DNA of 64,000 nucleotides. Source: an uncultured Pseudomonadota bacterium (GTDB lineage Bacteria; UBA10199; JADFYH01). The notes beneath the pieces were generated by a model that saw nothing but the letters and a program-made list of their open reading frames with translations, did not search any database and was not told where the DNA came from. Shown here piece by piece: positions 936-59,682 of the stretch. The position numbers and the translations under genes are program-made. Numbering within the stretch: position 1 is the first letter of the stretch; every line of letters starts with the position of its first letter. The stretch is from the NCBI GenBank assembly GCA_964384365.1, contig CAYLKF010000001.1, positions 124,163 to 188,162 on the forward strand. Reading direction: 5' to 3'.

Positions 936-968
936 ACAATAAACTCGTCTGGGATTTATTAAATAGAG

Positions 969-1102
969 TAATGGGTCAGCCTTTTTGATTAAGCGGAAAA
1001 GCGACGAATCCATCGATTGTAAAAATAGCACCTTTTCGAAACTACTTTAAAACATTTCCTTGCGGCGCGTTTTTACGCAAAAGAAAAAATGCTGACCCAT
1101 TA
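969..1102 (+). repeat. 134-bp intergenic element with 12-bp terminal inverted repeats (copy A of a family of 3 or more)
   Basis: Starts TAATGGGTCAGC and ends GCTGACCCATTA, which are perfect reverse complements. The internal core ...CATTTCCTT(G/A)CGG(C/T)GCGTTTTT(A/T)CGC...AAAAAATGC is shared with the elements at 22041 and 31815. It lies 20 nt upstream of the AKR start. Confidence 0.6.
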
Positions 1103-1122
1103 CAAATACGATAGGTAAATTT

Positions 1123-5518: not shown

Positions 5519-5592
5519 ATGTCATTCCCCGGTTTAACCGGGGAATCTAAATATGCCCAATAAGATCCTCCGATCAAGCCGGAGGATGACAG
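5519..5592. repeat. Double-hairpin REP-like element (copy 1), likely a bidirectional terminator between maf and the SDR gene
   Basis: ATTCCCCGG-tttaa-CCGGGGAAT and ATCCTCCG-atcaagc-CGGAGGAT are two perfect inverted repeats. A near-identical element lies in inverted orientation at 59607–59682. Confidence 0.55.
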
Positions 5593-11353: not shown

Positions 11354-12726
<1,373 letters not shown>

Positions 12727-14316: not shown

Positions 14317-14367
14317 ATAATTGATTCCCTTTTTGAATCCCCTCCTCTTAAGTTTAAAAGGAAGGTG

Positions 14368-14426
14368 GGAGGAGTTGTGTAACTTTTCACAACTCCTCCT
14401 AGCCCCCTCTTCATCTGAAGAGGGGG
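14368..14426 (-). terminator. Tandem stem-loops downstream of the aminotransferase gene (candidate intrinsic terminator)
   Basis: GGAGGAGTTGTG-taactttt-CACAACTCCTCC and CCCCCTCTT-catctg-AAGAGGGGG are perfect inverted repeats. A T-rich stretch follows on the minus strand. Confidence 0.5.
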
Positions 14427-20665: not shown

Positions 20666-22041
20666 ATAACAACACCACAATTCACATTGGAGAATCCGGC
20701 TGGCGTGCCATCATTTCAGATGGGTTTACCTGGCCTAAACTTGCTGCGATTGGGCTTGCGCTGGCGCGCTCTCGAACTCCTCAAAAAATAGTGATCGGAT
20801 ACGATAATCGCTTTCTCTCGCCCCTATTCGCCTCGAATCTTGCCGAGATTTTCGAAAATGAAAATTGGAAAGTCGATCTTGTGCGAGAAGTTTTTCCCAC
20901 ACCGGGAATTGCGAAATTAGTGCGAGAAAAAAAATACACTTACGGGCTTGTGATCACAGCCAGTCATAATCCTTACTACTATAACGGGCTTAAAATTTTT
21001 ACCTCCCCGGGCATTTTAACTTCGAAGGCTTTCAATGCCCAGATTTCTGAACAAGCCCAGGGTTTGCTCAAGCAAGATCTGCCCGCATTCAAACCAGAGC
21101 TCCCGAAAAAAACAAAGTTTGATTGGCAGAGAGAATATCTCAAACATCTTTTAGACCATATCGACACTTCGATTATTCGGCGTTCCAAACTTAGAGTCGC
21201 CTGGGATTGCTTTGGAGGAAGCACCTCCAAAATTTCTCCGGCTTTCTTCAAAAAACTTCAGCTCAAAAATTTTGCGGTTCCTTTTACTGAAAATCCGAAT
21301 TTTCAACATCGACGCCTCGAACCAGATTCCGAATCTACTCAAACACTCCGAAAACTTGTGCAAAAAGAAAAAGCGCATGTGGGCTTAGCCACAGATCTCG
21401 ATGGAGATCGTTTTGCCATTCTCGACGAAAAAGGAAATTTTGTTCTACCCAATCTCATAGGCCCTCTGTTCATCAATCACCTTTTAGGCACTCGCCAAGA
21501 AAAAGGCACCCTCTACCAAACGGTGAGCTGCTCAAATTTAAGCCGTCAAATTGCGGAACAATACGGAGCAAAACTCATCGAAGTGCCAGTAGGATTTCAA
21601 AAAATGGGTACGGCGATGGCCGAAGATCCTCAAGCCCTGCTTGGTTTTGAAGAAACGGGCGGAGTGGCCTATGCCCCTTATTTGTTTTTCAAAGATGGTT
21701 TAATGGCCCATGCCTTTATTTTAGAAATTTTGGCCACTCAGAAAAAACCTCTTTCTCAACTGATTCGAGAATTGCTCAAACGTTTTGGCCCTATTTTTTA
21801 TAAACGCCTCGATTTAAAAACTTCTCACGCTGATCAATGGAATGATCCTGAACTCTGGGAAAAGCTCTCCGGAGAAAAAATAACTCAGATTTCAGAACTC
21901 GATGGAAAAAAATTCTATCTTCAATCGGGCTGGGTGTTGGTGCGCCAATCGAAAACTGAAAATTTAATCCGTCTTTATTTTGAATTCAGCCAAGAAAAAA
22001 TGATCAAAAAAATATTCAATCAAGTGAAAAAAATAATATAA
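20662..22041 (+). CDS. Phosphoglucomutase/phosphomannomutase-family enzyme (possible phosphopentomutase role)
   Basis: The TASHNP active-site phosphoserine motif and a DGDRF metal-binding loop are present. Its ATGA overlaps the upstream gene. Confidence 0.8.
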   Translation: MNNNTTIHIGESGWRAIISDGFTWPKLAAIGLALARSRTPQKIVIGYDNRFLSPLFASNLAEIFENENWKVDLVREVFPTPGIAKLVREKKYTYGLVITASHNPYYYNGLKIFTSPGILTSKAFNAQISEQAQGLLKQDLPAFKPELPKKTKFDWQREYLKHLLDHIDTSIIRRSKLRVAWDCFGGSTSKISPAFFKKLQLKNFAVPFTENPNFQHRRLEPDSESTQTLRKLVQKEKAHVGLATDLDGDRFAILDEKGNFVLPNLIGPLFINHLLGTRQEKGTLYQTVSCSNLSRQIAEQYGAKLIEVPVGFQKMGTAMAEDPQALLGFEETGGVAYAPYLFFKDGLMAHAFILEILATQKKPLSQLIRELLKRFGPIFYKRLDLKTSHADQWNDPELWEKLSGEKITQISELDGKKFYLQSGWVLVRQSKTENLIRLYFEFSQEKMIKKIFNQVKKII

Positions 22042-22169
22042 AGGGCAGCGTTTCTGAAATGAGAGAAAAAGTACCGAATTCTCGAAGATTGAATTTAAAG
22101 AATTCTCTATTTTTCTAAAAACATTTCCTTACGGTGCGTTTTTTCGTGAATGAAAGAAATGCTGCCCTT
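22041..22169 (+). repeat. Copy B of the ~134-bp TIR element, with compensatory changes in its terminal stem
   Basis: Termini AAGGGCAGC ... GCTGCCCTT are again perfect reverse complements. The core CATTTCCTTACGGTGCGTTTTTTCG is conserved. It lies 21 nt upstream of the phosphorylase ATG. Confidence 0.55.
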
Positions 22170-22190
22170 TACAAAATAATTTTTTAAGTC

Positions 22191-25747: not shown

Positions 25748-25857
25748 AGAAGTTTATTGAAATTACTCCCCCTTTGTAAAAGGGGGATACAGGGGGATTT
25801 TATAATAAAAAGTTCCTTAATAATAAAGGTACCTTTCTATGAAAAAATCCCTCCTAA

Positions 25858-25878
25858 CCTCCCTTTTTCAAAGGGAGG
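25858..25878 (-). terminator. Stem-loop immediately downstream of leuS
   Basis: CCTCCCTTT-ttc-AAAGGGAGG is a perfect inverted repeat lying 10 nt past the leuS stop. A second hairpin, CCCCCTTT-gt-AAAGGGGG, lies at 25768–25786. Confidence 0.5.
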
Positions 25879-25888
25879 AAATTATTTT

Positions 25889-28366: not shown

Positions 28367-28505
28367 GTTCGACTTTTACACTAGAGTTTTTTAAGATGTC
28401 TAGAAGTTAGTCAAAAACATGACAAAGGGAAAAAAGATGATCAAGATCTCTTATGCCCAGGGTATGAAAAAACAAAAACCATCCCAAATTTAGATGGCTT
28501 TTAAA

Positions 28506-29363
28506 TTATTCCGAAGGTCTGCTATTCGGCAATTTCCATTCTTCCTCATGAAGCGTCCAGCCTCCACGCATTGCGACACTGTGAGGCTGATCGCTTTCAG
28601 TTTCATAAAATAGCTGCCAGCCCAATGGAAAATCAGAATAATCTGAATATTTTTCATTATTAGAAGGTCTATTTGCCCAAGCTTGCAGCAAAAGCTCCCT
28701 AGGATTCTCTATCTCAAAACCAAGATTTTCTCTGTACCGACAACGGAGCCCGGAGTACACGCTATAAAGTTGTGCCATCCCATATCCAATACTCTGTCCT
28801 TCTTCTCTACTCCAATCAAATCTCAGAGGATCACGCGCTGCTACTTGCAATCGTCCTTGAAGCACTGCAAATCCTTCTCGGACTATAGTTCGCATTAGAT
28901 CGTAACGACGATCAACTATCGACCTGTCATGTCTCGTCTCAGACTCAATCACAAGACCCGTCGCTTGAAGATCATATTCGGTAGGTAAAAGTCGTATTAA
29001 ATCGAGAATATCTAAAGCATTCAATGATTGAGGGTTAGAACGAAGTCTAGCGATTCCCTCTTCAACGGAATGAAAGCACCTTCCGTAATAACGCATAAGG
29101 GCTATTTGCAACCGATCATTCAACATTCGTCCGGCAGGGAAACTATTGATGATTTGCCGTGCCCGTTCAGCCAATCCTGGAACACCATCAGGAGGCAATA
29201 AACCAGAATCAAAGGGTAAATCACCGCTAGCAACTCGCTCTATAATTCCTATATCCCTTTGTAGAGAAGCAAAGTTTGTAAAAGAAAAACGCCCGCCCCT
29301 ATAAATGTTTATCCCAGTGCTCTGCCAAATATCTTGGACAAGTTGATCTCGTGCATTAACCAT
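28506..29363 (-). CDS. Orphan Arg-rich hypothetical protein
   Basis: 285-aa ORF with no recognised motif. Its upstream leader contains a G8 tract (29575–29582) and a 44-codon ORF in another frame. Confidence 0.4.
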   Translation of the reverse strand: MVNARDQLVQDIWQSTGINIYRGGRFSFTNFASLQRDIGIIERVASGDLPFDSGLLPPDGVPGLAERARQIINSFPAGRMLNDRLQIALMRYYGRCFHSVEEGIARLRSNPQSLNALDILDLIRLLPTEYDLQATGLVIESETRHDRSIVDRRYDLMRTIVREGFAVLQGRLQVAARDPLRFDWSREEGQSIGYGMAQLYSVYSGLRCRYRENLGFEIENPRELLLQAWANRPSNNEKYSDYSDFPLGWQLFYETESDQPHSVAMRGGWTLHEEEWKLPNSRPSE

Positions 29364-29776
29364 CTGGCCATTAACACGACTAGTCTCTCTTACCCCATCT
29401 GGACATAAAAATTGAACCTCGTCTCCGGCATCCAGAAGCCCTCGCCTCGCCCCTCCCCTGGCCGATCTACAATACTATATTCTCTTCCCCCCACATTGAT
29501 TCGGCGGAATTGATTGCTACTCATAAAGATCTCCTAAACAAATAAAGTTCTGCCCCACTGTCTTTATTATCGGCGGGGGGGGTGAGGTTGCTTATTTTTT
29601 TTGAGGAAGTTGGGACTTAAAGATTAAAAATGAAAAGAAGTGAATGGTTTTGTATAAATTGAGAAGATTTTGACACAATGCATTAGCAGGACTCAAGCAC
29701 TGACACAAAATCACCCTGGATACAGGATACAAAATTCATCTTGCCCATTTTTACTTTATTCCCCTATTATAAAGCA

Positions 29777-30031
29777 ATGGTGCAACTGAATCTTAAACTC
29801 TCGATACCTGAATCCCTAGCAAAGGAAGCAAAAACAGTTGGGCTTTTAAAACCTAAAAGCATCATTAAACTGCTGCGTTCTGAACTCAAATCCAGAAGAA
29901 AAACGAATTTTTTTAAAACTCTTGAAAAACTTTCGTCTCTCAAAATCCCTGCCCTTTCTCCCCAGGAAATTGAAGAAGAAATTCAAAAAGTTCGTGAAGA
30001 AAAAAAACGATATTCCAAAAAGTGTTCTTGA
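29777..30031 (+). CDS. Putative antitoxin for the downstream PIN toxin
   Basis: Small basic/acidic protein (MVQLNLKLSIPESLAKEAK...) immediately upstream of and overlapping a PIN-domain gene. Start chosen at M13 of the track ORF. Confidence 0.45.
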   Translation: MVQLNLKLSIPESLAKEAKTVGLLKPKSIIKLLRSELKSRRKTNFFKTLEKLSSLKIPALSPQEIEEEIQKVREEKKRYSKKCS

Positions 30032-30431
30032 TACCAACATCCTCATTTCCTCTTTCTTCTGGAAAGGCGATCCACGGCGGATTCTTTCGTTCGCTTATAA
30101 AAATAAACTCCAAATTTTTACCAGCCCTGTTCTTTTGTTAGAACTTGAAGAAGTCTTAAACCGACCCAAATTTATTTCATTTTTACAGAATGCACACGTA
30201 ACCCCTCACAACTTAATCATGGATTACGCACAACTGGCGACAGTTGTCACACCCGAGCACATCCCTTCTGTCGTGACACAGGATCCTGATGATAATGAAG
30301 TAGTTGCCTGCGCTCTTGCTTCAAAAGCGGACTTGATCATTTCAGGAGATTCCGATCTGTTAAGTCTCCGAAAGTATGAAAATATACCGATACTTTCTCC
30401 AAAAGAATTCATACGGTGGTTCAAATCATAG
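29994..30431 (+). CDS. PIN-domain toxin (TIGR00305-like PIN family)
   Basis: VLDTNILISSFF...DPDDNEVVACALASKADLIISGDSDLL shows the conserved acidic residues of PIN nucleases. The likely start is GTG 29994 or TTG 29970, overlapping the antitoxin gene. Confidence 0.75.
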   Translation: MKKKNDIPKSVLDTNILISSFFWKGDPRRILSFAYKNKLQIFTSPVLLLELEEVLNRPKFISFLQNAHVTPHNLIMDYAQLATVVTPEHIPSVVTQDPDDNEVVACALASKADLIISGDSDLLSLRKYENIPILSPKEFIRWFKS

Positions 30432-30437
30432 ACTTGC

Positions 30438-30634
30438 TTAATCGATAGAACGACGGATTCTCGCAAACTCATCCATCACTTTATGTGCATCCGCTTGGGT
30501 TTTACGATAGTAATTCTTCAACTTTCGAAGTGCTATTTTCCTTCTGAGATTTTTATTAAAATCGGTAATGATTTGACAGATAGACTTCCATGCAGAGTAA
30601 TTTTGTTCTCCCATTAATTTATTTTTTCTTAACA
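30438..30634 (-). CDS. Small hypothetical basic protein (about 60 aa)
   Basis: Open frame continuing past the end of the DUF4442 gene (MLRKNKLMGEQNYSAWKSICQ...). No homology is recognisable. Confidence 0.25.
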
Positions 30635-31768: not shown

Positions 31769-31814
31769 ACTTGACTCTCGAAACCAGACGATTTATGGGG
31801 TCTAAAAGGATACG

Positions 31815-31948
31815 TAATGGGTCAGCGTTTTTGATTGAGCGAAAAAGCACCGAATCTATCGATTATAAAAGTAATATCTTTTCGAAATTACTTCAAAAAT
31901 TTTCCTTACGGTGCGTTTTTTCGCGAAAGAAAAAATGCTGACCCATTA
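31815..31948 (+). repeat. Copy C of the 134-bp TIR element; it contains the spurious upstream ATG of the bolA ORF
   Basis: TAATGGGTCAGC ... GCTGACCCATTA termini are identical to copy A. The core is about 85% identical to copies A and B. Confidence 0.6.
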
Positions 31949-31961
31949 TGCGAATAATAAC

Positions 31962-32213
31962 ATGCCAGTAAACCCAAGTGAAATTCAACAATTGATTGAA
32001 AAGGCCCTACCCGGTGCCCAAGTGAAAATCGAAGATTTAGTGGGCGATGGCGATCATTTGCAAGCCACCGTCGTTGCCTCTCAATTTGAAGGGAAAACCC
32101 TTTTACAGCAGCACCAGCTGGTTTATGCCGCTTTACGCGAAACCTTAAAAGAACGATTACATGCTTTAGCTTTAAAAACTTACAGTCCATCGGACTCCGC
32201 GCGCCAGACATAA
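31962..32213 (+). CDS. bolA: BolA-family protein
   Basis: The VKIEDLVGDGDHLQATVVASQFEGKTLLQQHQLVY motif fits BolA. The start is moved to the ATG after the repeat element. Confidence 0.75.
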   Translation: MPVNPSEIQQLIEKALPGAQVKIEDLVGDGDHLQATVVASQFEGKTLLQQHQLVYAALRETLKERLHALALKTYSPSDSARQT

Positions 32214-37205: not shown

Positions 37206-38231
37206 TCATGAGCGGAACTCTGCATAGCAAGCCCGAGAAGCTGTGGCAAGATGGGTTTTTAGAAGGGTTAAGAAACACAGGAGCAAGAGAGCAGCTACCC
37301 CATTATGGGCAACGGCTACGGGCAGAGGGAGACCAAAAAAGACATTTGAAAAACCCAAAAAAACCTGCACAGAAACTAAAATCACCAAGGCCCCAGCCAA
37401 AACCCGAAATGTTTTCTCGCGAAAGGCTAAATAAAGTCCTAAAGAAAAAGAATAGAAAAATACAATCATCGCTCCCAAACGGTGCATCCAATGTAAGGTC
37501 ACGCGAGCAGGATTATGAAGCACACCCCATTCATAATTTTTTCCAAACTCGTGCCAAACACCGTAAGCCGATTTGAAATCGAGGGGCGGAATCCAGTGTC
37601 CTTGGCATTGCGGAAAGTCCGGACAAGCTAAAGCCGCATAATTGGCACTCACCCACCCTCCTAAAGTAATTTGGATAATCAAGAGTACAAGACCCACTTT
37701 GATGAGAATAATAGAGAGGGAAAAATTACAAGAGCCTAACTCAGGAGAAGATAGACTTGTAGTCAGTAAAACTTCGCGGGTTTGCAAAAAATGCCAGGCC
37801 AATAAACTTAAGGTTGTAAATCCCCCTAGTAAATGCGCCATCACCACAAAAGGATGAAGCTTTAGGGTAACTGTCCATTTACCCAGTAGCCCTTGAAAAA
37901 TAACCCAGAGCACTAAAAACCAAGGCAGTAAAAATCGCTTTCCTTTGGTATTTCGAAAACGAAGCGAGCAAAACGCAATGAGCAAAACTAAAATACCCAA
38001 AAAACTCGCTGCATAGCGGTGGAGCATCTCTTTCCAGGCTTTATGCATTTCAATATTGGCAACAGCAGAAGATAAATCAATTTGTGAAACCACTAACTTG
38101 CCGTAACACCCCGGCCAATCCGGACACCCTAAACCCGCATTCGATAAACGAACGTACGCTCCTAAGAGGATTAAGCACCAGGTAAAACAGGTCGTAAATA
38201 AAACAAGGTGGGAGTAGTTTTTGATTTTCAA
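37206..38231 (-). CDS. ctaA: Heme A synthase (COX15/CtaA)
   Basis: Cys pairs in the first loop (GLGCPDWPGCYG) and conserved His-containing helices. 341 aa. Confidence 0.85.
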   Translation of the reverse strand: MKIKNYSHLVLFTTCFTWCLILLGAYVRLSNAGLGCPDWPGCYGKLVVSQIDLSSAVANIEMHKAWKEMLHRYAASFLGILVLLIAFCSLRFRNTKGKRFLLPWFLVLWVIFQGLLGKWTVTLKLHPFVVMAHLLGGFTTLSLLAWHFLQTREVLLTTSLSSPELGSCNFSLSIILIKVGLVLLIIQITLGGWVSANYAALACPDFPQCQGHWIPPLDFKSAYGVWHEFGKNYEWGVLHNPARVTLHWMHRLGAMIVFFYSFSLGLYLAFREKTFRVLAGALVILVSVQVFLGFSNVFFGLPLPVAVAHNGVAALLLLCFLTLLKTHLATASRACYAEFRS

Positions 38232-38302
38232 GGTTCAAGGTTTAAGGTTTGAGGCTTAAAGACAAAGGATTCCCCTTACACCTTAAAACTCATACCTTAT
38301 TC
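38232..38302. repeat. Heptamer inverted arrays (AAGGTTN x4 then CCTTANN x4) between coxIV and the ctaA start
   Basis: aaggttcaaggtttaaggtttgaggctt ... ccttacaccttaaaactcataccttatt. Confidence 0.5.
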
Positions 38303-54767: not shown

Positions 54768-55616
54768 TTAGTTACTCACTACCTTCCACGTGGCATCAGG
54801 GTTATAAGATTTGATTTGCGAAACAATGAGAGAGGTATCTTGCCCCAGATTTTTTTGCAAGACCTGGCCTTCTTGATCAACCAAAAAAGTCATCACACCC
54901 GAATCATTCCATTTTGCGGGGTAAGCAATCAAGGCAAACCCTTTTTTGGCCTTTAAGATATGATAGTAATAACCATGATAAAGCACTGTGGTGGGATCTT
55001 CTTGGGAGGCTTTGTAACCCTCTGCCTTGGCCTGCAAAACGCGGGGGCCAATCGGGCTTGAATCTTGAGGATTGTCTGAAACCCAATACAAACCATTTTT
55101 CTTACCCGGATCACTTAAAAATTGTTTTGCATAGGCACCCGAATTTTTCTGAGCATATTCTTTTTGCGCCCGCACATAATCGCGCGCACTCGCAATGGCA
55201 TCCAACTCGTTGGCACCCACTCGCCGATTTAAAATTTCTTCTCGCCCAACCTTAATATCAAAACTCCATCGCTTCTCTTTTTTCACCAACGGAATTGGAA
55301 ACGACCACGAATCATTTCCTACATATAAAATTTGGTGGGTAGCATCGGCAGCAACCCATTTCTTTTTCTCAGAAAGCCGCTTTAAAAACCTTTCTTTGGC
55401 TTGTTGATCTTGAATTTTATCTCCTGAATTCCACAAATCTGAATTTTCAGCTCCAAAAAGAGCCGAAAGAGAAGCCGAAACATCGGCACTGGTCAGCGCT
55501 GATTTCAAAGCCTGAAGGGCTTGAGCAGGGCTTGAAAAGTTTTGCTCGGCCCAGACGGGCATGGAAATAATTAAACAGAAAACCAAGATTAACTTTTTAA
55601 AAATTTTGCCGACCAT
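54768..55616 (-). CDS. DUF2950-family secreted protein
   Basis: Signal peptide, then the HGYYYHIL...GGFALIAYPAKWNDSGVMTF pattern characteristic of DUF2950. Confidence 0.6.
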   Translation of the reverse strand: MVGKIFKKLILVFCLIISMPVWAEQNFSSPAQALQALKSALTSADVSASLSALFGAENSDLWNSGDKIQDQQAKERFLKRLSEKKKWVAADATHQILYVGNDSWSFPIPLVKKEKRWSFDIKVGREEILNRRVGANELDAIASARDYVRAQKEYAQKNSGAYAKQFLSDPGKKNGLYWVSDNPQDSSPIGPRVLQAKAEGYKASQEDPTTVLYHGYYYHILKAKKGFALIAYPAKWNDSGVMTFLVDQEGQVLQKNLGQDTSLIVSQIKSYNPDATWKVVSN

Positions 55617-55776
55617 ATTATCTCCTTCACTTTTCAAACGAGGCTTTTAGATTTCTGAAGCGAACACAAACAAGCCGAACATCAATAAGTAAACTCTTCC
55701 GGCCTTTCAATAATAGCTACCAAACATTTTCCTTACGGCGGATTTTGTGGGCGCTGAAGAAATACTAAAAGCCTTG

Positions 55777-56904
55777 TTATCTTCTCCCCCCACCATGAAA
55801 CCCTCCGAAACCTCCGCCGCCAAACCCTCCACGCCCTCCTCCTCCAAAACCACCAAAACCACCCCCTCCACGGCTATCGAACCCCCGCATACTATCTCTC
55901 ATTCCATCATCGCCGCCTCTGGCATCGAAGGCCGAGCGATCCCCACCAAAATTGGAACGATCTCCCCCACCTCGCAGATCATTCCCCCCATCTCCACGAT
56001 CTATCCCCTGATTTTTTTGATTTAAATTTTTCATCTGATTTTCAAAATTATTCAGATTGGCTTTTTGTGCGTCAGCAGCACTTCCTTTTGAAAAAGCAGA
56101 ATCTGCTTTAGACGAAGCCCCTAAAGAATCTCGCGATGTATCATGACTCCAGGCATTATCGGGGTGATTATTCTTCCAATTATTCGCATCATTTTTGGCA
56201 TCTTGAGTCGCATTCGGATGATTATTTTCCCAGTTCTTCACATTATTCGCATTCCAATTATTCCAATTATAATTATTTACGACCACGCCACCGTACCCAC
56301 CCCAGCCCCAAGCGAATCCCATCGTCATCCAAGCGCCCATCGCAAAACCAAGCCCATAAGTGACTGCAGGTGCAGGAGCAGTATAGATTACGGTTGGATC
56401 ATAAGTTGGCACATAAATCACTTGAGGATTGGTCGAGGTAATTTGAATGGCAGAATCGCTTTGGGTCACCGTTTGTTGGGCGTTTGAATTAAGATTGCCT
56501 TGTTTTTTAGCCTGCTGACGCAAGGTTTGAACCGCTTGCAAAACATCGCCCTGTTGATTCATCACGGCTTGCCCGAGTTGTTGAGTCCAATCGAGTTTAT
56601 CGTTCATCATTTTCAAGACAGAAGGATAATGCGCAACCGCTTTCACGCTGGGATCCCAACTCTGAGAATCAATCTTCGAAATATCTTTATCTTTTTTCAC
56701 CACGCGCGCAGCCTGCACAATCTCTAAAGGATAAGTCGAAGCCGGAAGAATCTGAGCCAGCAAAGGATCGGGGTAAAGCGCAATCGGCGCAACGAGCTTT
56801 TGAAGTTGACTGGAAGAAAGTTTAGAGTTGGAGCTTGAATTTTGAGCGAAACCGGGAGGTATGAGTAGTAAAGAGATGAGTAAAAACGTGAGTTTCTTGA
56901 GCAT
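55777..56904 (-). CDS. DUF3300-family secreted protein with a Gly-rich C-terminus
   Basis: LVAPIALYPDPLLAQILPASTYPLEIV is the conserved DUF3300 N-terminal motif. It ends in GGFGGFGGGGRGG repeats. Confidence 0.6.
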   Translation of the reverse strand: MLKKLTFLLISLLLIPPGFAQNSSSNSKLSSSQLQKLVAPIALYPDPLLAQILPASTYPLEIVQAARVVKKDKDISKIDSQSWDPSVKAVAHYPSVLKMMNDKLDWTQQLGQAVMNQQGDVLQAVQTLRQQAKKQGNLNSNAQQTVTQSDSAIQITSTNPQVIYVPTYDPTVIYTAPAPAVTYGLGFAMGAWMTMGFAWGWGGYGGVVVNNYNWNNWNANNVKNWENNHPNATQDAKNDANNWKNNHPDNAWSHDTSRDSLGASSKADSAFSKGSAADAQKANLNNFENQMKNLNQKNQGIDRGDGGNDLRGGGDRSNFGGDRSAFDARGGDDGMRDSMRGFDSRGGGGFGGFGGGGRGGFGGGGFGGFHGGGRR

Positions 56905-56957: not shown

Positions 56958-57773
56958 CTACAAGGTTTTCGATTCGTCTTTCTTAACCCAACCTCGCCTT
57001 CCATCCGAAAGCACGATCTTCACATAATCTCCCTGAGATTCCTCTAAGGTAAAAAGACTTCCTTCATGAAGCTCAAAGAGTTTAATCGATTGATCGGTGG
57101 GTTCCGAAAAAACAGAAGCCGTTGAAACAATCACCACAGCCGTTTTTTGGAAATATTGGGTATAAACTTGAATGAGGGCAGTAGGAAAGAAAACAAGATT
57201 GATTCCAAACAAAAGAACAAGAGCCAAATTCACCACGAATTTTTTCTTGAATAAGCGGAAAATTAAAAGTCCAAAAAAGAGGGTATAAAAGAAAAGCGAA
57301 ACAATCAAAAGCTCTGAGAGCGTGAGAAGATCTACCCAGAAAAAAAGCGTATGATAAATTTTAGAAGAGAGAGGGTGAATTTCTTGATCGGCCCTTTTAC
57401 TTTTTACATAACGACTATTCGCTAACAAATCGCGATCTCTCGGATTCAGCTTCAAAGCCTTTTGGTAATAATAAACTGCCATTCCGACTTGGCCCATCCG
57501 GTAATACGTATTTCCCAAATTATAATAGAGATCGGCCGAAGGCTGTGTTTCAAGCTCCGAATAGAGTTGGATCGCCTTCGGAAAATCCTGGTTATAATAA
57601 GCCTGCGAAGCTTCTTTCATCAGCTCTTCCGAGCTTGCCGCAAAACTCACCATCGAATAGGAGAGCAAGAAAATCACCGCTATTATTTTAAGAAAAATAG
57701 TAACTGGTCTGCGAGTTCTGAAAGGAGCGAAAAGTATGGAAGAATTCTCAGACCCGTTATGAAAATTTTTCAT
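56958..57773 (-). CDS. BatE/BatC-like TPR–TM–SH3 protein
   Basis: TPR repeats (YYNLGNTYYRMGQ...YYQKALKLNP), a TM helix and a C-terminal SH3b-like segment. Confidence 0.55.
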   Translation of the reverse strand: MKNFHNGSENSSILFAPFRTRRPVTIFLKIIAVIFLLSYSMVSFAASSEELMKEASQAYYNQDFPKAIQLYSELETQPSADLYYNLGNTYYRMGQVGMAVYYYQKALKLNPRDRDLLANSRYVKSKRADQEIHPLSSKIYHTLFFWVDLLTLSELLIVSLFFYTLFFGLLIFRLFKKKFVVNLALVLLFGINLVFFPTALIQVYTQYFQKTAVVIVSTASVFSEPTDQSIKLFELHEGSLFTLEESQGDYVKIVLSDGRRGWVKKDESKTL

Positions 57774-59606: not shown

Positions 59607-59682
59607 TGTCATCCCACGACTTGATCGGGGGATCCAGTACAAAGAATATTTAGATTCCCCGGTTAAACCGTGGAATGACATT
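59607..59682. repeat. Double-hairpin REP-like element (copy 2, inverted relative to copy 1 at 5519)
   Basis: Its reverse complement is ATGTCATTCCACGGTTTAACCGGGGAATCTAAATAT...GATCCCCCGATCAAGTCGTGGGATGACAG. This is over 85% identical to 5519–5592. Confidence 0.55.

What the first reader, a model, noticed from the sequence alone, without database searches (positions are those of the whole stretch)
31815..31948. Family of ~134-bp intergenic elements with 12-bp terminal inverted repeats, each just 5' of a plus-strand gene start (copy C, upstream of bolA–grxD)
Three full copies (969–1102, 22041–22169, 31815–31948) share a conserved ~110-bp core. Each is bounded by perfectly complementary termini (TAATGGGTCAGC / GCTGACCCATTA). 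All three lie in the same orientation, ending 14–22 nt before the ATG of a plus-strand gene (the AKR gene, the thymidine/AMP phosphorylase-like gene and bolA). This is unexpected for a randomly inserting MITE. It fits a structured 5'-leader RNA (a riboswitch- or attenuator-like element) or a promoter-carrying mobile cassette. Copy C also shows that the ORF-track bolA start is an artefact of the element's terminal ...CATTATG.
Basis: seen in the sequence. Interest (0 to 1): 0.8.

Follow-up and report, generated by a model that had tools for sequence, protein, structure and literature searches.

The report
Small mobile palindromic repeat (MITE-like) family
The ~135-bp element upstream of bolA is one copy of a small, non-coding, hairpin-forming mobile repeat that has landed in several gene junctions of this uncultured bacterium. 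It is not a riboswitch-like leader, so it is an ordinary kind of thing, though a previously undescribed family.

Summary
The three copies are real (A 968-1103, B 22038-22172, C 31814-31949). Both lie between minus-strand genes, so they are antisense to their neighbours.

A closely related genome (LeuRS 91% identical) settles what the element is. It has a clean empty site at bolA, only the last ~45 nt of copy A, a full copy B, no D, and a full 151-nt E where the window keeps 61 nt. Copy B is flanked by a perfect 8-bp direct repeat (AAAATAAT).

The downstream genes are unrelated, no Rfam family matches, and no sigma-70 promoter or terminator consensus recurs in the copies. The long-hairpin covariation is real. 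However, it is expected for inverted-repeat ends, and the orthologous B pair does not preserve it.

Verdict: a new family of miniature inverted-repeat (MITE-like) elements in an uncultured deltaproteobacteria-like lineage. The leader-RNA reading is not supported.

Side effects worth noting:
- Copy C sits between the bolA Shine-Dalgarno sequence and its ATG.
- Copy B supplies the stop codon of the upstream gene.
- E lies in frame inside a signal-peptide coding region.
- All five copies are on the same DNA strand (n=5, not significant).

The parts
31814..31949 (+). Copy C, the finding. A 136-bp palindromic element with 12-13-bp terminal inverted repeats (G)TAATGGGTCAGC / GCTGACCCATTA(T), inserted between the bolA Shine-Dalgarno sequence and the bolA ATG.
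   Evidence: The orthologous site in the relative is empty: AAAAGGAT|GATAACATG, a 49-bp Rieske-bolA spacer against 193 bp here.
968..1103 (+). Copy A, 136 bp, with the same termini as C. It lies between a membrane-protein gene (ends 935) and the aldo/keto reductase gene (ATG 1123). Flanking repeats are AAATAGA / AAATACGA.
   Evidence: The relative keeps only the last ~45 nt of the element plus the spacer (59/60 identical). The left ~94 nt and 18 nt of flank are deleted.
22038..22172 (+). Copy B, 135 bp, a variant subfamily with termini (A)TAAAGGGCAGC / GCTGCCCTTTA(C). Its first bases supply the TAA stop of the phosphoglucomutase-like gene (22039-22041). It ends 18 nt before the thymidine-phosphorylase-like ATG (22191).
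   Evidence: An orthologous full copy is present in the relative, 121/133 identical with no indels.
22030..22037 (.). Left copy of the 8-bp direct repeat AAAATAAT flanking copy B (putative target-site duplication).
   Evidence: The empirical chance of an 8/8 match at such spacing is 6e-5, or 1.1e-3 for AT-rich flanks.
22173..22180 (.). Right copy of the 8-bp direct repeat AAAATAAT flanking copy B.
   Evidence: Removing the element and one repeat reconstructs ...AAA ATA ATT TTT TAA GTC ATG, a tight operon junction (read from the sequence).
55636..55780 (+). Copy D, ~145 bp and diverged (66-76% identical to the others). It has its own complementary termini (AGGCTTTTAG / CTAAAAGCCT) and the invariant core TTCCTTACGGCG. 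It lies between two minus-strand genes (DUF3300 stop at 55777, DUF2950 ATG at 55616), so it is antisense to them.
   Evidence: (95.8 bits, + strand only). The relative's spacer is 42 bp against 139 bp here, and the 79% relative also lacks it.
57700..57760 (+). Remnant E', 61 nt. These are the two arms of an element whose central 90 nt are deleted, in frame. It lies inside the annotated 5' coding region (signal-peptide N-region) of the TPR/BatE-like gene 56958-57773 (-).
   Evidence: 19.4 bits. The relative has the full 151-nt element at the same place (L047 11874-12024; 88.6 bits). Its protein is 30 residues longer. The 79% relative has no insert.
31806..31810 (+). The bolA Shine-Dalgarno core (AAGGA). 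It is now 151 nt upstream of the ATG because copy C was inserted between them.
   Evidence: In the relative the same AAGGA lies 7 nt from the ATG. The RNA fold puts the whole element in one closed rod, which leaves the SD and AUG about 11 unpaired nt apart. The functional consequence is inferred.
31962..32213 (+). The bolA coding sequence with its true start (ATG 31962; 83 aa).
   Evidence: and the relative's 83-aa BolA (PF01722) starting at the equivalent ATG.

Best explanation
The element is one copy of a family of non-autonomous, non-coding, AT-rich mobile repeats of about 135-150 bp (MITE-like). The two ~45-nt arms are imperfect inverted repeats, so either strand folds into one long rod.

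I infer that a transposase encoded elsewhere in the genome moved the copies into AT-rich gene junctions, duplicating about 8 bp of target. After insertion the copies decay by substitution and by internal or terminal deletions, as expected for hairpin-prone DNA.

Their closeness to start codons follows from the very short spacers in this genome and an AT-rich target preference. It is not evidence of a leader function.

Any effects on neighbouring genes are secondary and differ by locus:
- a stable hairpin in the co-transcribed mRNA;
- a new stop codon for the upstream gene (B, D);
- displacement of the ribosome-binding site (C);
- in-frame extra residues in a signal peptide (E).

Shown: the family, its structure, the presence/absence and deletion states in relatives, and the 8-bp flanking repeat at B. 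Inferred: the transposition mechanism, the source transposase and all expression effects.
For: 1. There are dispersed copies at five loci in about 73 kb of the source genome, 66-85% identical to each other. Their GC is 34-39% against 43.6% for the window.
2. The states at orthologous sites in a relative with 91-97% protein identity fit a mobile, decaying element:
   - C: clean empty site.
   - A: 5'-truncated.
   - B: full.
   - D: absent.
   - E: full in the relative but with 90 nt deleted in the window.
   - A 79% relative lacks D and E.
3. Perfect 11-13-bp terminal inverted repeats are present. A perfect 8-bp flanking direct repeat at B has a chance of 6e-5 to 1e-3, and A has a 7/8 repeat.
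4. Orientation relative to the flanking genes is not fixed: A, B and C are sense, D and E antisense (with gene).
5. The downstream genes are unrelated: aldo/keto reductase, thymidine-phosphorylase-like, BolA, DUF2950 and a TPR protein.
6. There is no Rfam family, only sub-threshold plant miRNA hairpins. No recurrent promoter or terminator consensus was found.
7. The orthologous B copies differ at 12 positions that do not preserve pairing: 31 Watson-Crick pairs fall to 29, and one pair changed on both sides to G-A.
8. The same lineage carries other small palindromic insertions, so such elements are common here.
Against: - No transposase or full-length insertion sequence with matching ends was found in the 195 kb available.
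- Flanking direct repeats are clear only at B and weaker at A. They are not evident at the one demonstrably polymorphic site, C.
- Terminal sequences differ between subfamilies while an internal block (TTCCTTACGGYG.GTTTT) is the most conserved part. This is unusual if the ends are the transposase binding sites.
- Copy B is 91% identical between species with no indels, and the retained end of A is 98% identical, while fourfold-degenerate sites are only 63% identical. Old copies are therefore not evolving freely. Aligned intergenic DNA as a whole is 88% identical, however.
- All five copies lie on the same DNA strand.
Confidence: 0.8

Rival explanations
1. The element is of mobile origin but has been retained by the host. 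Old copies (B, and the right end of A) would have been co-opted as structural parts of the mRNA or DNA. Possible roles are a stabilising or processing hairpin, a terminator or insulator between adjacent genes, or a protein-binding site. This is what is proposed for ERIC, Correia, REP or SPRITE elements.
For: - B is 121/133 identical with no indels between two genomes whose fourfold sites are 63% identical. The right end of A plus its spacer is 59/60 identical.
- The internal block TTCCTTACGG is invariant in all copies, and all four hits in the window are on the + strand.
- A purine-rich internal loop (GAAATGA / GAATGAA) that is not complementary is conserved in B, the relative's B and E.
- Four of the five loci lie between co-directional, closely spaced genes, so they are probably co-transcribed.
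Against: - Aligned intergenic DNA in general is 88% identical between these genomes, so B's 91% is not exceptional.
- The same element has been lost, truncated or internally deleted at four of five loci in one lineage or the other without loss of the neighbouring genes.
- Substitutions between the orthologous B copies do not keep the stems.
- There is no terminator or promoter consensus.
Confidence: 0.12
2. The element is a cis-regulatory leader RNA (riboswitch, attenuator or thermosensor) that controls the downstream plus-strand gene.
For: - A, B and C are all sense to, and 13-21 nt upstream of, a start codon.
- The fold is stable.
- The stems covary across copies: 85% of cells are paired and 13 of 32 pairs changed on both sides, above the shuffled and slid controls.
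Against: - The bolA site is empty and the AKR copy is truncated in a close relative, yet both genes are intact.
- D and E are antisense to their genes.
- The regulated genes would be functionally unrelated.
- The fold is a single rod with no multi-helix junction or pocket.
- Both strands fold about equally well.
- There is no Rfam match.
- An 8-bp flanking duplication is present at B.
Confidence: 0.03
3. The element is a REPIN-like or IS200/IS605-type palindromic element. It would be moved as single-stranded DNA by a Y1 (RAYT/TnpA) transposase, which would explain a strand bias tied to replication direction.
For: - All five copies have the same polarity on the window's + strand, whatever the gene orientation.
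- The window has uniformly negative GC skew, so it lies in a single replichore.
- The whole element is a hairpin rather than just short TIRs.
- Termini begin GTAA/ATAA, which is close to the GTAG tag of REPs (PMC3733652 for the tag).
- Copies persist at orthologous sites.
Against: - Five of five on one strand has a two-sided p of 0.06.
- The perfect 8-bp flanking duplication at B is not expected for Y1 transposition (the expectation is my own knowledge of the IS200/IS605 family).
- No Y1 transposase (PF01797) appears in any fetched locus.
- At about 135 bp with an asymmetric core, the element is larger than typical REP doublets.
Confidence: 0.05

Closest known systems
Bacterial MITEs with flanking direct repeats, e.g. 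Chunjie of Geobacter uraniireducens and QMITE2 of Coxiella burnetii (review PMC10969869)
   Same: - Length under 500 bp, non-coding and AT-rich, with terminal inverted repeats.
- Stable stem-loop transcript.
- Dispersed copies in intergenic or operon junctions.
- Full-length copies mixed with 5'-truncated and internally deleted ones.
- Direct repeats of 7-9 bp in some copies that fade with age.
- Insertion inside an operon without destroying it.
   Different: There is no sequence similarity to anything searched. No parent insertion sequence was identified. The terminal sequences vary between subfamilies while an internal block is the most conserved part.
ERIC / IRU elements of enterobacteria
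   Same: An imperfect palindrome of about 127 bp over most of its length. ERIC elements lie in transcribed spacers, in either orientation relative to genes, with internal deletions or insertions. They are often conserved at orthologous sites, and their mobility mechanism is unknown.
   Different: There is no sequence match in 5,426 E. coli genomes. The host lineage is different. Here one clean insertion polymorphism and one 8-bp duplication are seen.
Rickettsia palindromic elements (RPEs)
   Same: Palindromic repeats of about 100-150 bp that can sit in frame inside protein-coding genes. Copy E adds 46 codons in the relative and 16 in the window to the N-terminal region of a TPR protein, compared with a relative without it, and the 90-nt internal deletion is in frame.
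   Different: Only one of the five loci is intragenic, and an alternative downstream start cannot be excluded in the relative. There is no sequence relationship.
REP / REPIN elements mobilised by RAYT transposases (PMC3733652)
   Same: Hairpin-forming extragenic repeats with long persistence at orthologous sites and a possible strand polarity.
   Different: REPs are 20-40 bp with a GTAG or CGTC tag. Here the unit is about 135 bp, the tag is absent (the ends are GTAA, ATAA or CTCA), a flanking duplication is present at B, and no RAYT gene was seen.
Riboswitches and other 5'-leader RNAs (Rfam)
   Same: The position just upstream of start codons at three loci, and a stable conserved fold.
   Different: The element is absent or truncated at orthologous loci, antisense at other loci, upstream of unrelated genes and folded as a single rod. 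It matches no Rfam family.

Membership tests
MITE (miniature inverted-repeat transposable element; features as listed in PMC10969869) | Small size (<500 bp) and no coding capacity | tested here: met
   Full copies are 135-151 bp. The only ORFs are mechanical ones that run through the element.
MITE | Terminal inverted repeats | tested here: met
   Perfect 11-13-bp termini at A, B and C. The arms are imperfectly complementary over about 45 nt, with 29-34 Watson-Crick pairs per copy.
MITE | Multiple dispersed copies in the genome | tested here: met
   Five loci in about 73 kb of the source genome, and three in about 63 kb of the relative. The genome-wide copy number is unknown.
MITE | Insertion polymorphism (filled versus empty orthologous sites) | tested here: met
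   Clean empty site at bolA in the relative. D is absent from two relatives. E is absent from the 79% relative.
MITE | Target-site duplication flanking the element | tested here: inconclusive
   B has a perfect 8/8 repeat AAAATAAT, with chance 6e-5 to 1e-3, and the relative's B has 7/8. A has 7/8 with one indel. C, D and E show no convincing repeat.
MITE | AT-rich element inserted in AT-rich sites | tested here: met
   Element GC is 34-39% against 43.6% for the window. The flanks are A/T runs.
MITE | A cognate autonomous insertion sequence with the same ends that mobilises it in trans | not testable with these tools
   No transposase appears in the window or in any fetched locus. The rest of the source genome could not be read, and the collection scans found only chance hits.
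Riboswitch / cis-regulatory leader RNA | Retained at orthologous loci, upstream of the same gene, in related genomes | tested here: not met
   Empty at bolA and truncated at AKR in the relative. Only B is retained.
Riboswitch / cis-regulatory leader RNA | Fixed sense orientation in the 5' UTR of the controlled genes, which share a pathway or ligand | tested here: not met
   D and E are antisense to their flanking genes. The downstream genes are unrelated.
Riboswitch / cis-regulatory leader RNA | Match to a described RNA family | tested here: not met
   Nothing reaches gathering score. Only sub-threshold miRNA-precursor hairpins match, at 13-26 bits against cut-offs of 70-195.
Riboswitch / cis-regulatory leader RNA | Covariation that supports a strand-specific RNA structure | tested here: inconclusive
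   Covariation is present (13 of 32 pairs), but it is equally expected for inverted-repeat DNA. Both strands fold similarly. G:T pairs number 11 on the + strand against 4 on the - strand, which is not significant. Pairing is not preserved between the orthologous B copies.
REP / REPIN (RAYT-associated) | A 20-40-bp palindromic unit with a GTAG or CGTC tag at one end (PMC3733652) | tested here: not met
   The unit is about 135 bp and its ends are GTAA, ATAA, CTCA or AAAC.
REP / REPIN (RAYT-associated) | A RAYT (Y1 transposase) gene in the genome, flanked by the repeats | not testable with these tools
   None is present in the 195 kb available.
ERIC | Sequence homology to the enterobacterial ERIC consensus | tested here: not met
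   A blastn search (word size 11) of copy C against all complete E. coli genomes found no match.

The most novel reading that the evidence does not exclude
The family may be more than selfish DNA. It could be a strand-locked palindromic element that the host tolerates or has co-opted.
- All five copies carry the invariant asymmetric core (TTCCTTACGG followed by a T-run) on the same DNA strand of one replichore, regardless of gene direction.
- Old copies are conserved far above synonymous sites.
- The rod-like fold may let the element sit between a Shine-Dalgarno sequence and its start codon (bolA), or inside a signal-peptide coding region, without inactivating the gene.

If so, the element would be moved as single-stranded DNA, or selected for a replication- or transcription-oriented role. 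The bolA copy would then be a natural example of a ribosome-binding site bridged by a 140-nt hairpin.
Probability: 0.12. Interest if true: 0.55.

Novelty: new member of a known kind. Interest (0 to 1): 0.25.

Why it matters
For annotation, the result removes a false lead (a putative new riboswitch class) and explains several wrong start or stop calls in this window. These are the bolA N-terminal extension, the stop codon of the phosphoglucomutase-like gene, and the long N-terminus of the TPR protein.

For biology, it adds a MITE-like family in a poorly known, uncultured lineage, with informative natural variants:
- a filled and an empty site at bolA;
- a copy that separates a ribosome-binding site from its start codon;
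- an in-frame intragenic copy.

These variants could be used to test how long hairpin insertions are tolerated in compact operons. None of this changes what is known about the class.

Tried and rejected
1. I scanned the public collections for the conserved core (TTTCCTTRCGGYGCGTTTT[T]). The hits were 9 in genome contigs, 36 in metagenome contigs and 5 in viral contigs. All are seed-length chance matches with no full element. The element core was therefore not found outside the window's genome and its 91% relative. The source genome seems not to be held in those collections, and look-up of its LeuRS was 'not on record'.
2. Rfam at gathering threshold gave nothing. At permissive E-values it gave only plant and insect miRNA-precursor hairpins far below their cut-offs. 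I rejected these as generic long-hairpin matches.
3. A blastn search of copy C against PLSDB plasmids and all complete E. coli genomes found no match.
4. Sigma-70 promoter and intrinsic-terminator scans of the A, B, C and D regions found nothing recurrent. The only promoter-like hits are two weak minus-strand matches that straddle the right end of C.
5. More distant relatives (LeuRS 72-73%) lack the PGM-TP and bolA synteny and carry no family member.
6. The covariance model also hit window 25776-25868 and L053 6292-6405. On inspection these are unrelated palindromic insertions, not family members.
7. A defined target-site duplication at C could not be established. The several registers I tried (TA, ATA, 8 bp) all need extra substitutions or indels.
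8. Integron attC, sigma-54 or ECF promoter motifs and IHF sites were considered by eye and not found. These are my own readings, not tool tests.
9. I tried to extend the source genome beyond the window. Only 8.9 kb on the left was obtained, because the right-hand contig ends at the window edge.

Full report
**1. The observation**

The three stated copies exist. An nhmmer profile built from them recovers each at E 1e-34 to 1e-41, with nothing comparable elsewhere in the window. A and C are 85-86% identical, and B is 75-79% identical to them.

A and C are bounded by exactly TAATGGGTCAGC / GCTGACCCATTA. That 12-mer occurs nowhere else in the window. B is bounded by a different but also complementary pair, TAAAGGGCAGC / GCTGCCCTTTA.

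The copies end 20, 21 and 13 nt before the ATGs of three genes (Pfam):
- an aldo/keto reductase gene (1123);
- a thymidine-phosphorylase-like gene (22191);
- bolA (31962).

Each copy folds, on either strand, into one long rod (RNA z-scores -3.6 to -8.9). The complementarity is not limited to 12 bp. The two ~45-nt arms pair at 29-34 positions.

**2.

A profile and a covariance model built from an extended alignment find two more copies.
- D (55636-55780) is a fourth full but diverged copy (95.8 bits, E 5e-19, + strand only).
- E' (57700-57760) is a 61-nt remnant.

D lies between two minus-strand genes. The DUF3300 stop is at 55777 and the DUF2950 ATG is at 55616. E' lies in the first codons of a minus-strand TPR/BatE-like gene, directly after the BatD stop.

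Relative to the downstream gene, A, B and C are therefore sense, while D and E are antisense. The invariant block TTCCTTRCGGYG occurs four times in the window, always inside these copies and always on the + strand.

**3. Provenance and relatives**

The window (GC 43.6%) comes from an uncultured bacterium whose proteins are labelled at best 'Deltaproteobacteria bacterium' by their sources.

A close relative is present in JGI metagenome 3300013121 on contigs Ga0172278_1663 and _1314. Its protein identities are LeuRS 91%, BatD 94% and AKR 97%. Other relatives used were:
- a 79% relative, GCA_964457215.1;
- 72-73% relatives.

Between the window and the close relative, identity by site class is:

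| Site class | Identity |
|---|---|
| Fourfold-degenerate sites | 63% |
| Third codon positions | 69% |
| Aligned intergenic DNA | 88% |

**4. What the orthologous sites show**

| Locus | Window | Close relative |
|---|---|---|
| C (bolA) | Full copy; spacer 193 bp | Empty; Rieske-bolA spacer 49 bp |
| A (AKR) | Full copy | Only the last ~45 nt kept, plus spacer (59/60 identical) |
| B (PGM/TP) | Full copy | Full copy, 121/133 identical, no indels |
| D | Full copy; spacer 139 bp | Absent; spacer 42 bp |
| E | 61-nt remnant | Full 151-nt element |

- At C, the relative reads ...GGGGTCTAAAAGGAT|GATAACATGCC.... The window has about 145 extra bases at exactly that point.
- At A, the relative has lost the left ~94 nt of the element and 18 nt of flank.
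- At D, the 79% relative also lacks the element.
- At E, the window's remnant lacks the central 90 nt, and the 79% relative has no insert.

One lineage or the other has thus gained, lost, truncated or internally deleted the element at four of five loci, while the neighbouring genes remain intact. This is the behaviour of a mobile, decaying repeat. It is not the behaviour of a cis-regulatory RNA.

**5. Ends and target duplication**

I defined the ends by the 13-bp inverted repeat. With those ends, B is flanked by a perfect 8-bp direct repeat, AAAATAAT (22030-22037 and 22173-22180). The relative's B has 7/8.

The empirical frequency of an 8/8 match at such spacing in this window is 6e-5. It is 1.1e-3 when both flanks are AT-rich.

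Removing the element and one repeat reconstructs ...AAA ATA ATT TTT TAA GTC ATG. That is a tight operon junction in which the upstream gene stops 3 nt before the next ATG (read). The present TAA stop of the upstream gene is supplied by the element's first bases.

A has AAATAGA / AAATACGA. C, D and E give no convincing repeat. The target duplication is therefore supported but not general.

**6. Structure and covariation**

The six distinct sequences are A, C, B, the relative's B, the relative's E, and D. Across them the consensus rod has 32 pairs:
- 85% of cells are paired;
- 13 pairs show changes on both sides;
- the covariation score is 0.37, against 0.17 in shuffles and 0.10 or less for slid partners.

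The palindromic symmetry is therefore maintained across subfamilies. This cannot separate an RNA stem from inverted-repeat DNA ends.
- Both strands fold about equally well.
- G:T-type pairs favour the + strand only 11 to 4.

Where evolution in place can be observed, between B and its ortholog, the 12 substitutions do not preserve pairing.
- Watson-Crick pairs fall from 31 to 29.
- One pair changed on both sides to G-A.
- A run of four adjacent changes disrupts a stem.

The covariation therefore most likely arose while the element was propagating, not through selection at the resident loci.

**7. Tests of the alternatives**

No Rfam family reaches threshold. The permissive search returns only miRNA-precursor hairpins far below their cut-offs. 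No sigma-70 promoter or intrinsic-terminator consensus recurs in the copies.

No similar sequence exists in PLSDB plasmids or in complete E. coli genomes, so by sequence this is not ERIC. Scans of the genome, metagenome and viral collections with the core motif found only chance seed matches.

No transposase is present in the window or in the fetched loci. The mobilising enzyme is unknown.

**8. Most likely mechanism**

This is a non-autonomous MITE-like element, mobilised in trans, that inserts into AT-rich gene junctions with a duplication of about 8 bp. It then decays by deletion.

Its closeness to start codons follows from spacers that are only 0-50 bp long before insertion. In such spacers any intergenic insertion is near an ATG.

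Local consequences, all inferred:
- Copy C lies between the bolA Shine-Dalgarno core and the ATG. In the relative, AAGGA is 7 nt from the ATG.
- The predicted RNA closes the whole element into one rod. That leaves the SD and AUG about 11 unpaired nt apart, so translation may survive through hairpin bridging.
- Alternatively, translation may use the in-frame ATG at 31935 inside the element.
- B and D provide the stop codon of the upstream gene.
- E is read through in frame in the N-region of a signal peptide, much as Rickettsia palindromic elements are.

**9. Residual oddities**

These keep a small probability for something more interesting.
- All five copies share one DNA strand in a window of uniformly negative GC skew. 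With five copies the two-sided p is 0.06.
- The most conserved part is an internal asymmetric block rather than the termini.
- A non-complementary purine-rich internal loop is conserved in several copies.
- Old copies are much more conserved than synonymous sites, though not more than intergenic DNA in general.

These points fit either retention by the host (as proposed for ERIC, REP and Correia) or single-strand mobilisation. A genome-wide census would decide between them.

**10. Comparison with known kinds and verdict**

By the features listed for prokaryotic MITEs in PMC10969869, the family meets every criterion that could be tested except a general target duplication. Those features are size under 500 bp, TIRs, direct repeats in younger copies, AT-richness, stable stem-loop transcripts, and truncated copies. 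The parent insertion sequence could not be tested.

The family resembles:
- ERIC in being palindromic over most of its length;
- RPEs in its one in-frame intragenic copy;
- Chunjie and QMITE2 in its operon insertions and its mix of full and truncated copies.

It is not a member of any of those families by sequence. It is a new member of a known kind and of modest interest.

Noticed in passing
window 25748-25888: A 141-bp insertion of a different small palindromic element lies exactly between the LeuRS stop and the holA start. It contains the hairpins CTCCCCCTTTGTAAAAGGGGGA and CCTCCCTTTTTCAAAGGGAGG. In the close relative the two genes abut with no spacer. A Logan contig of the same sample ends here, which suggests a multi-copy repeat.
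   Followed up: partly
window 5519-5554 and 59646-59681: A 36-nt hairpin repeat (ATGTCATTCCCCGGTTTAACCGGGGAATCTAAATAT) occurs twice, 97% identical, in inverted orientation. The first copy is in a spacer that does not align with the relative. The second supplies the ATG of the annotated BatD ORF, which is 635 aa here against 619 aa in the relative, so that start is probably an artefact of the repeat. A Logan contig also ends at the first copy.
   Followed up: partly
L053 6292-6405 (JGI Ga0172278_1505, a 72% LeuRS relative): A ~114-bp element with perfect 32-bp terminal inverted repeats (GGGCTCTGGGGGATTTTTTTTCAAAACTTTAA) is inserted between trpF and trpB. The sister genome (L051) has a 26-bp spacer there. 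This is a separate MITE family in the same broad lineage.
   Followed up: partly
window 31806-31964: Copy C separates the bolA Shine-Dalgarno core (AAGGA) from its ATG by about 150 nt. The predicted RNA rod would bring them to about 11 unpaired nt apart. An in-frame ATG at 31935 inside the element is an alternative start. Which one is used is unknown.
   Followed up: partly
window 56958-57773 (-) and L047 11861-12766: The TPR/BatE-like protein carries element-derived residues in frame after codon 5. These number 16 extra residues in the window and 46 in the relative, compared with the 79% relative. The 90-nt internal deletion of the element in the window kept the reading frame.
   Followed up: yes
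whole window versus L047, L048 and L055: Aligned intergenic DNA is 88% identical between the two genomes, whereas third codon positions are 69% and fourfold sites 63% identical. Short spacers are under much stronger constraint than synonymous sites, although several spacers do not align at all.
   Followed up: partly
window 12695-12725 and 38227-38257: Short runs of a heptamer (AAACCTT repeated three or four times) occur in two intergenic spacers in inverted orientation (89-93% complementary). Their nature is unknown.
   Followed up: no
window 14341-14426: A compound palindrome lies in the spacer between two minus-strand genes. It includes CACAACTCCTCC arms and a GGGGGAGAAG...CTTCTCCCCC-type hairpin. 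It may be a terminator or another small repeat.
   Followed up: no
window 28367-30618: About 2.2 kb does not align with the relative. It includes a small antitoxin-like ORF (29741-30031) overlapping a PIN-like ORF (29922-30431), and a 285-aa ORF with no Pfam match. The relative has a different 431-aa gene at this position. This is a variable islet next to LeuRS.
   Followed up: no
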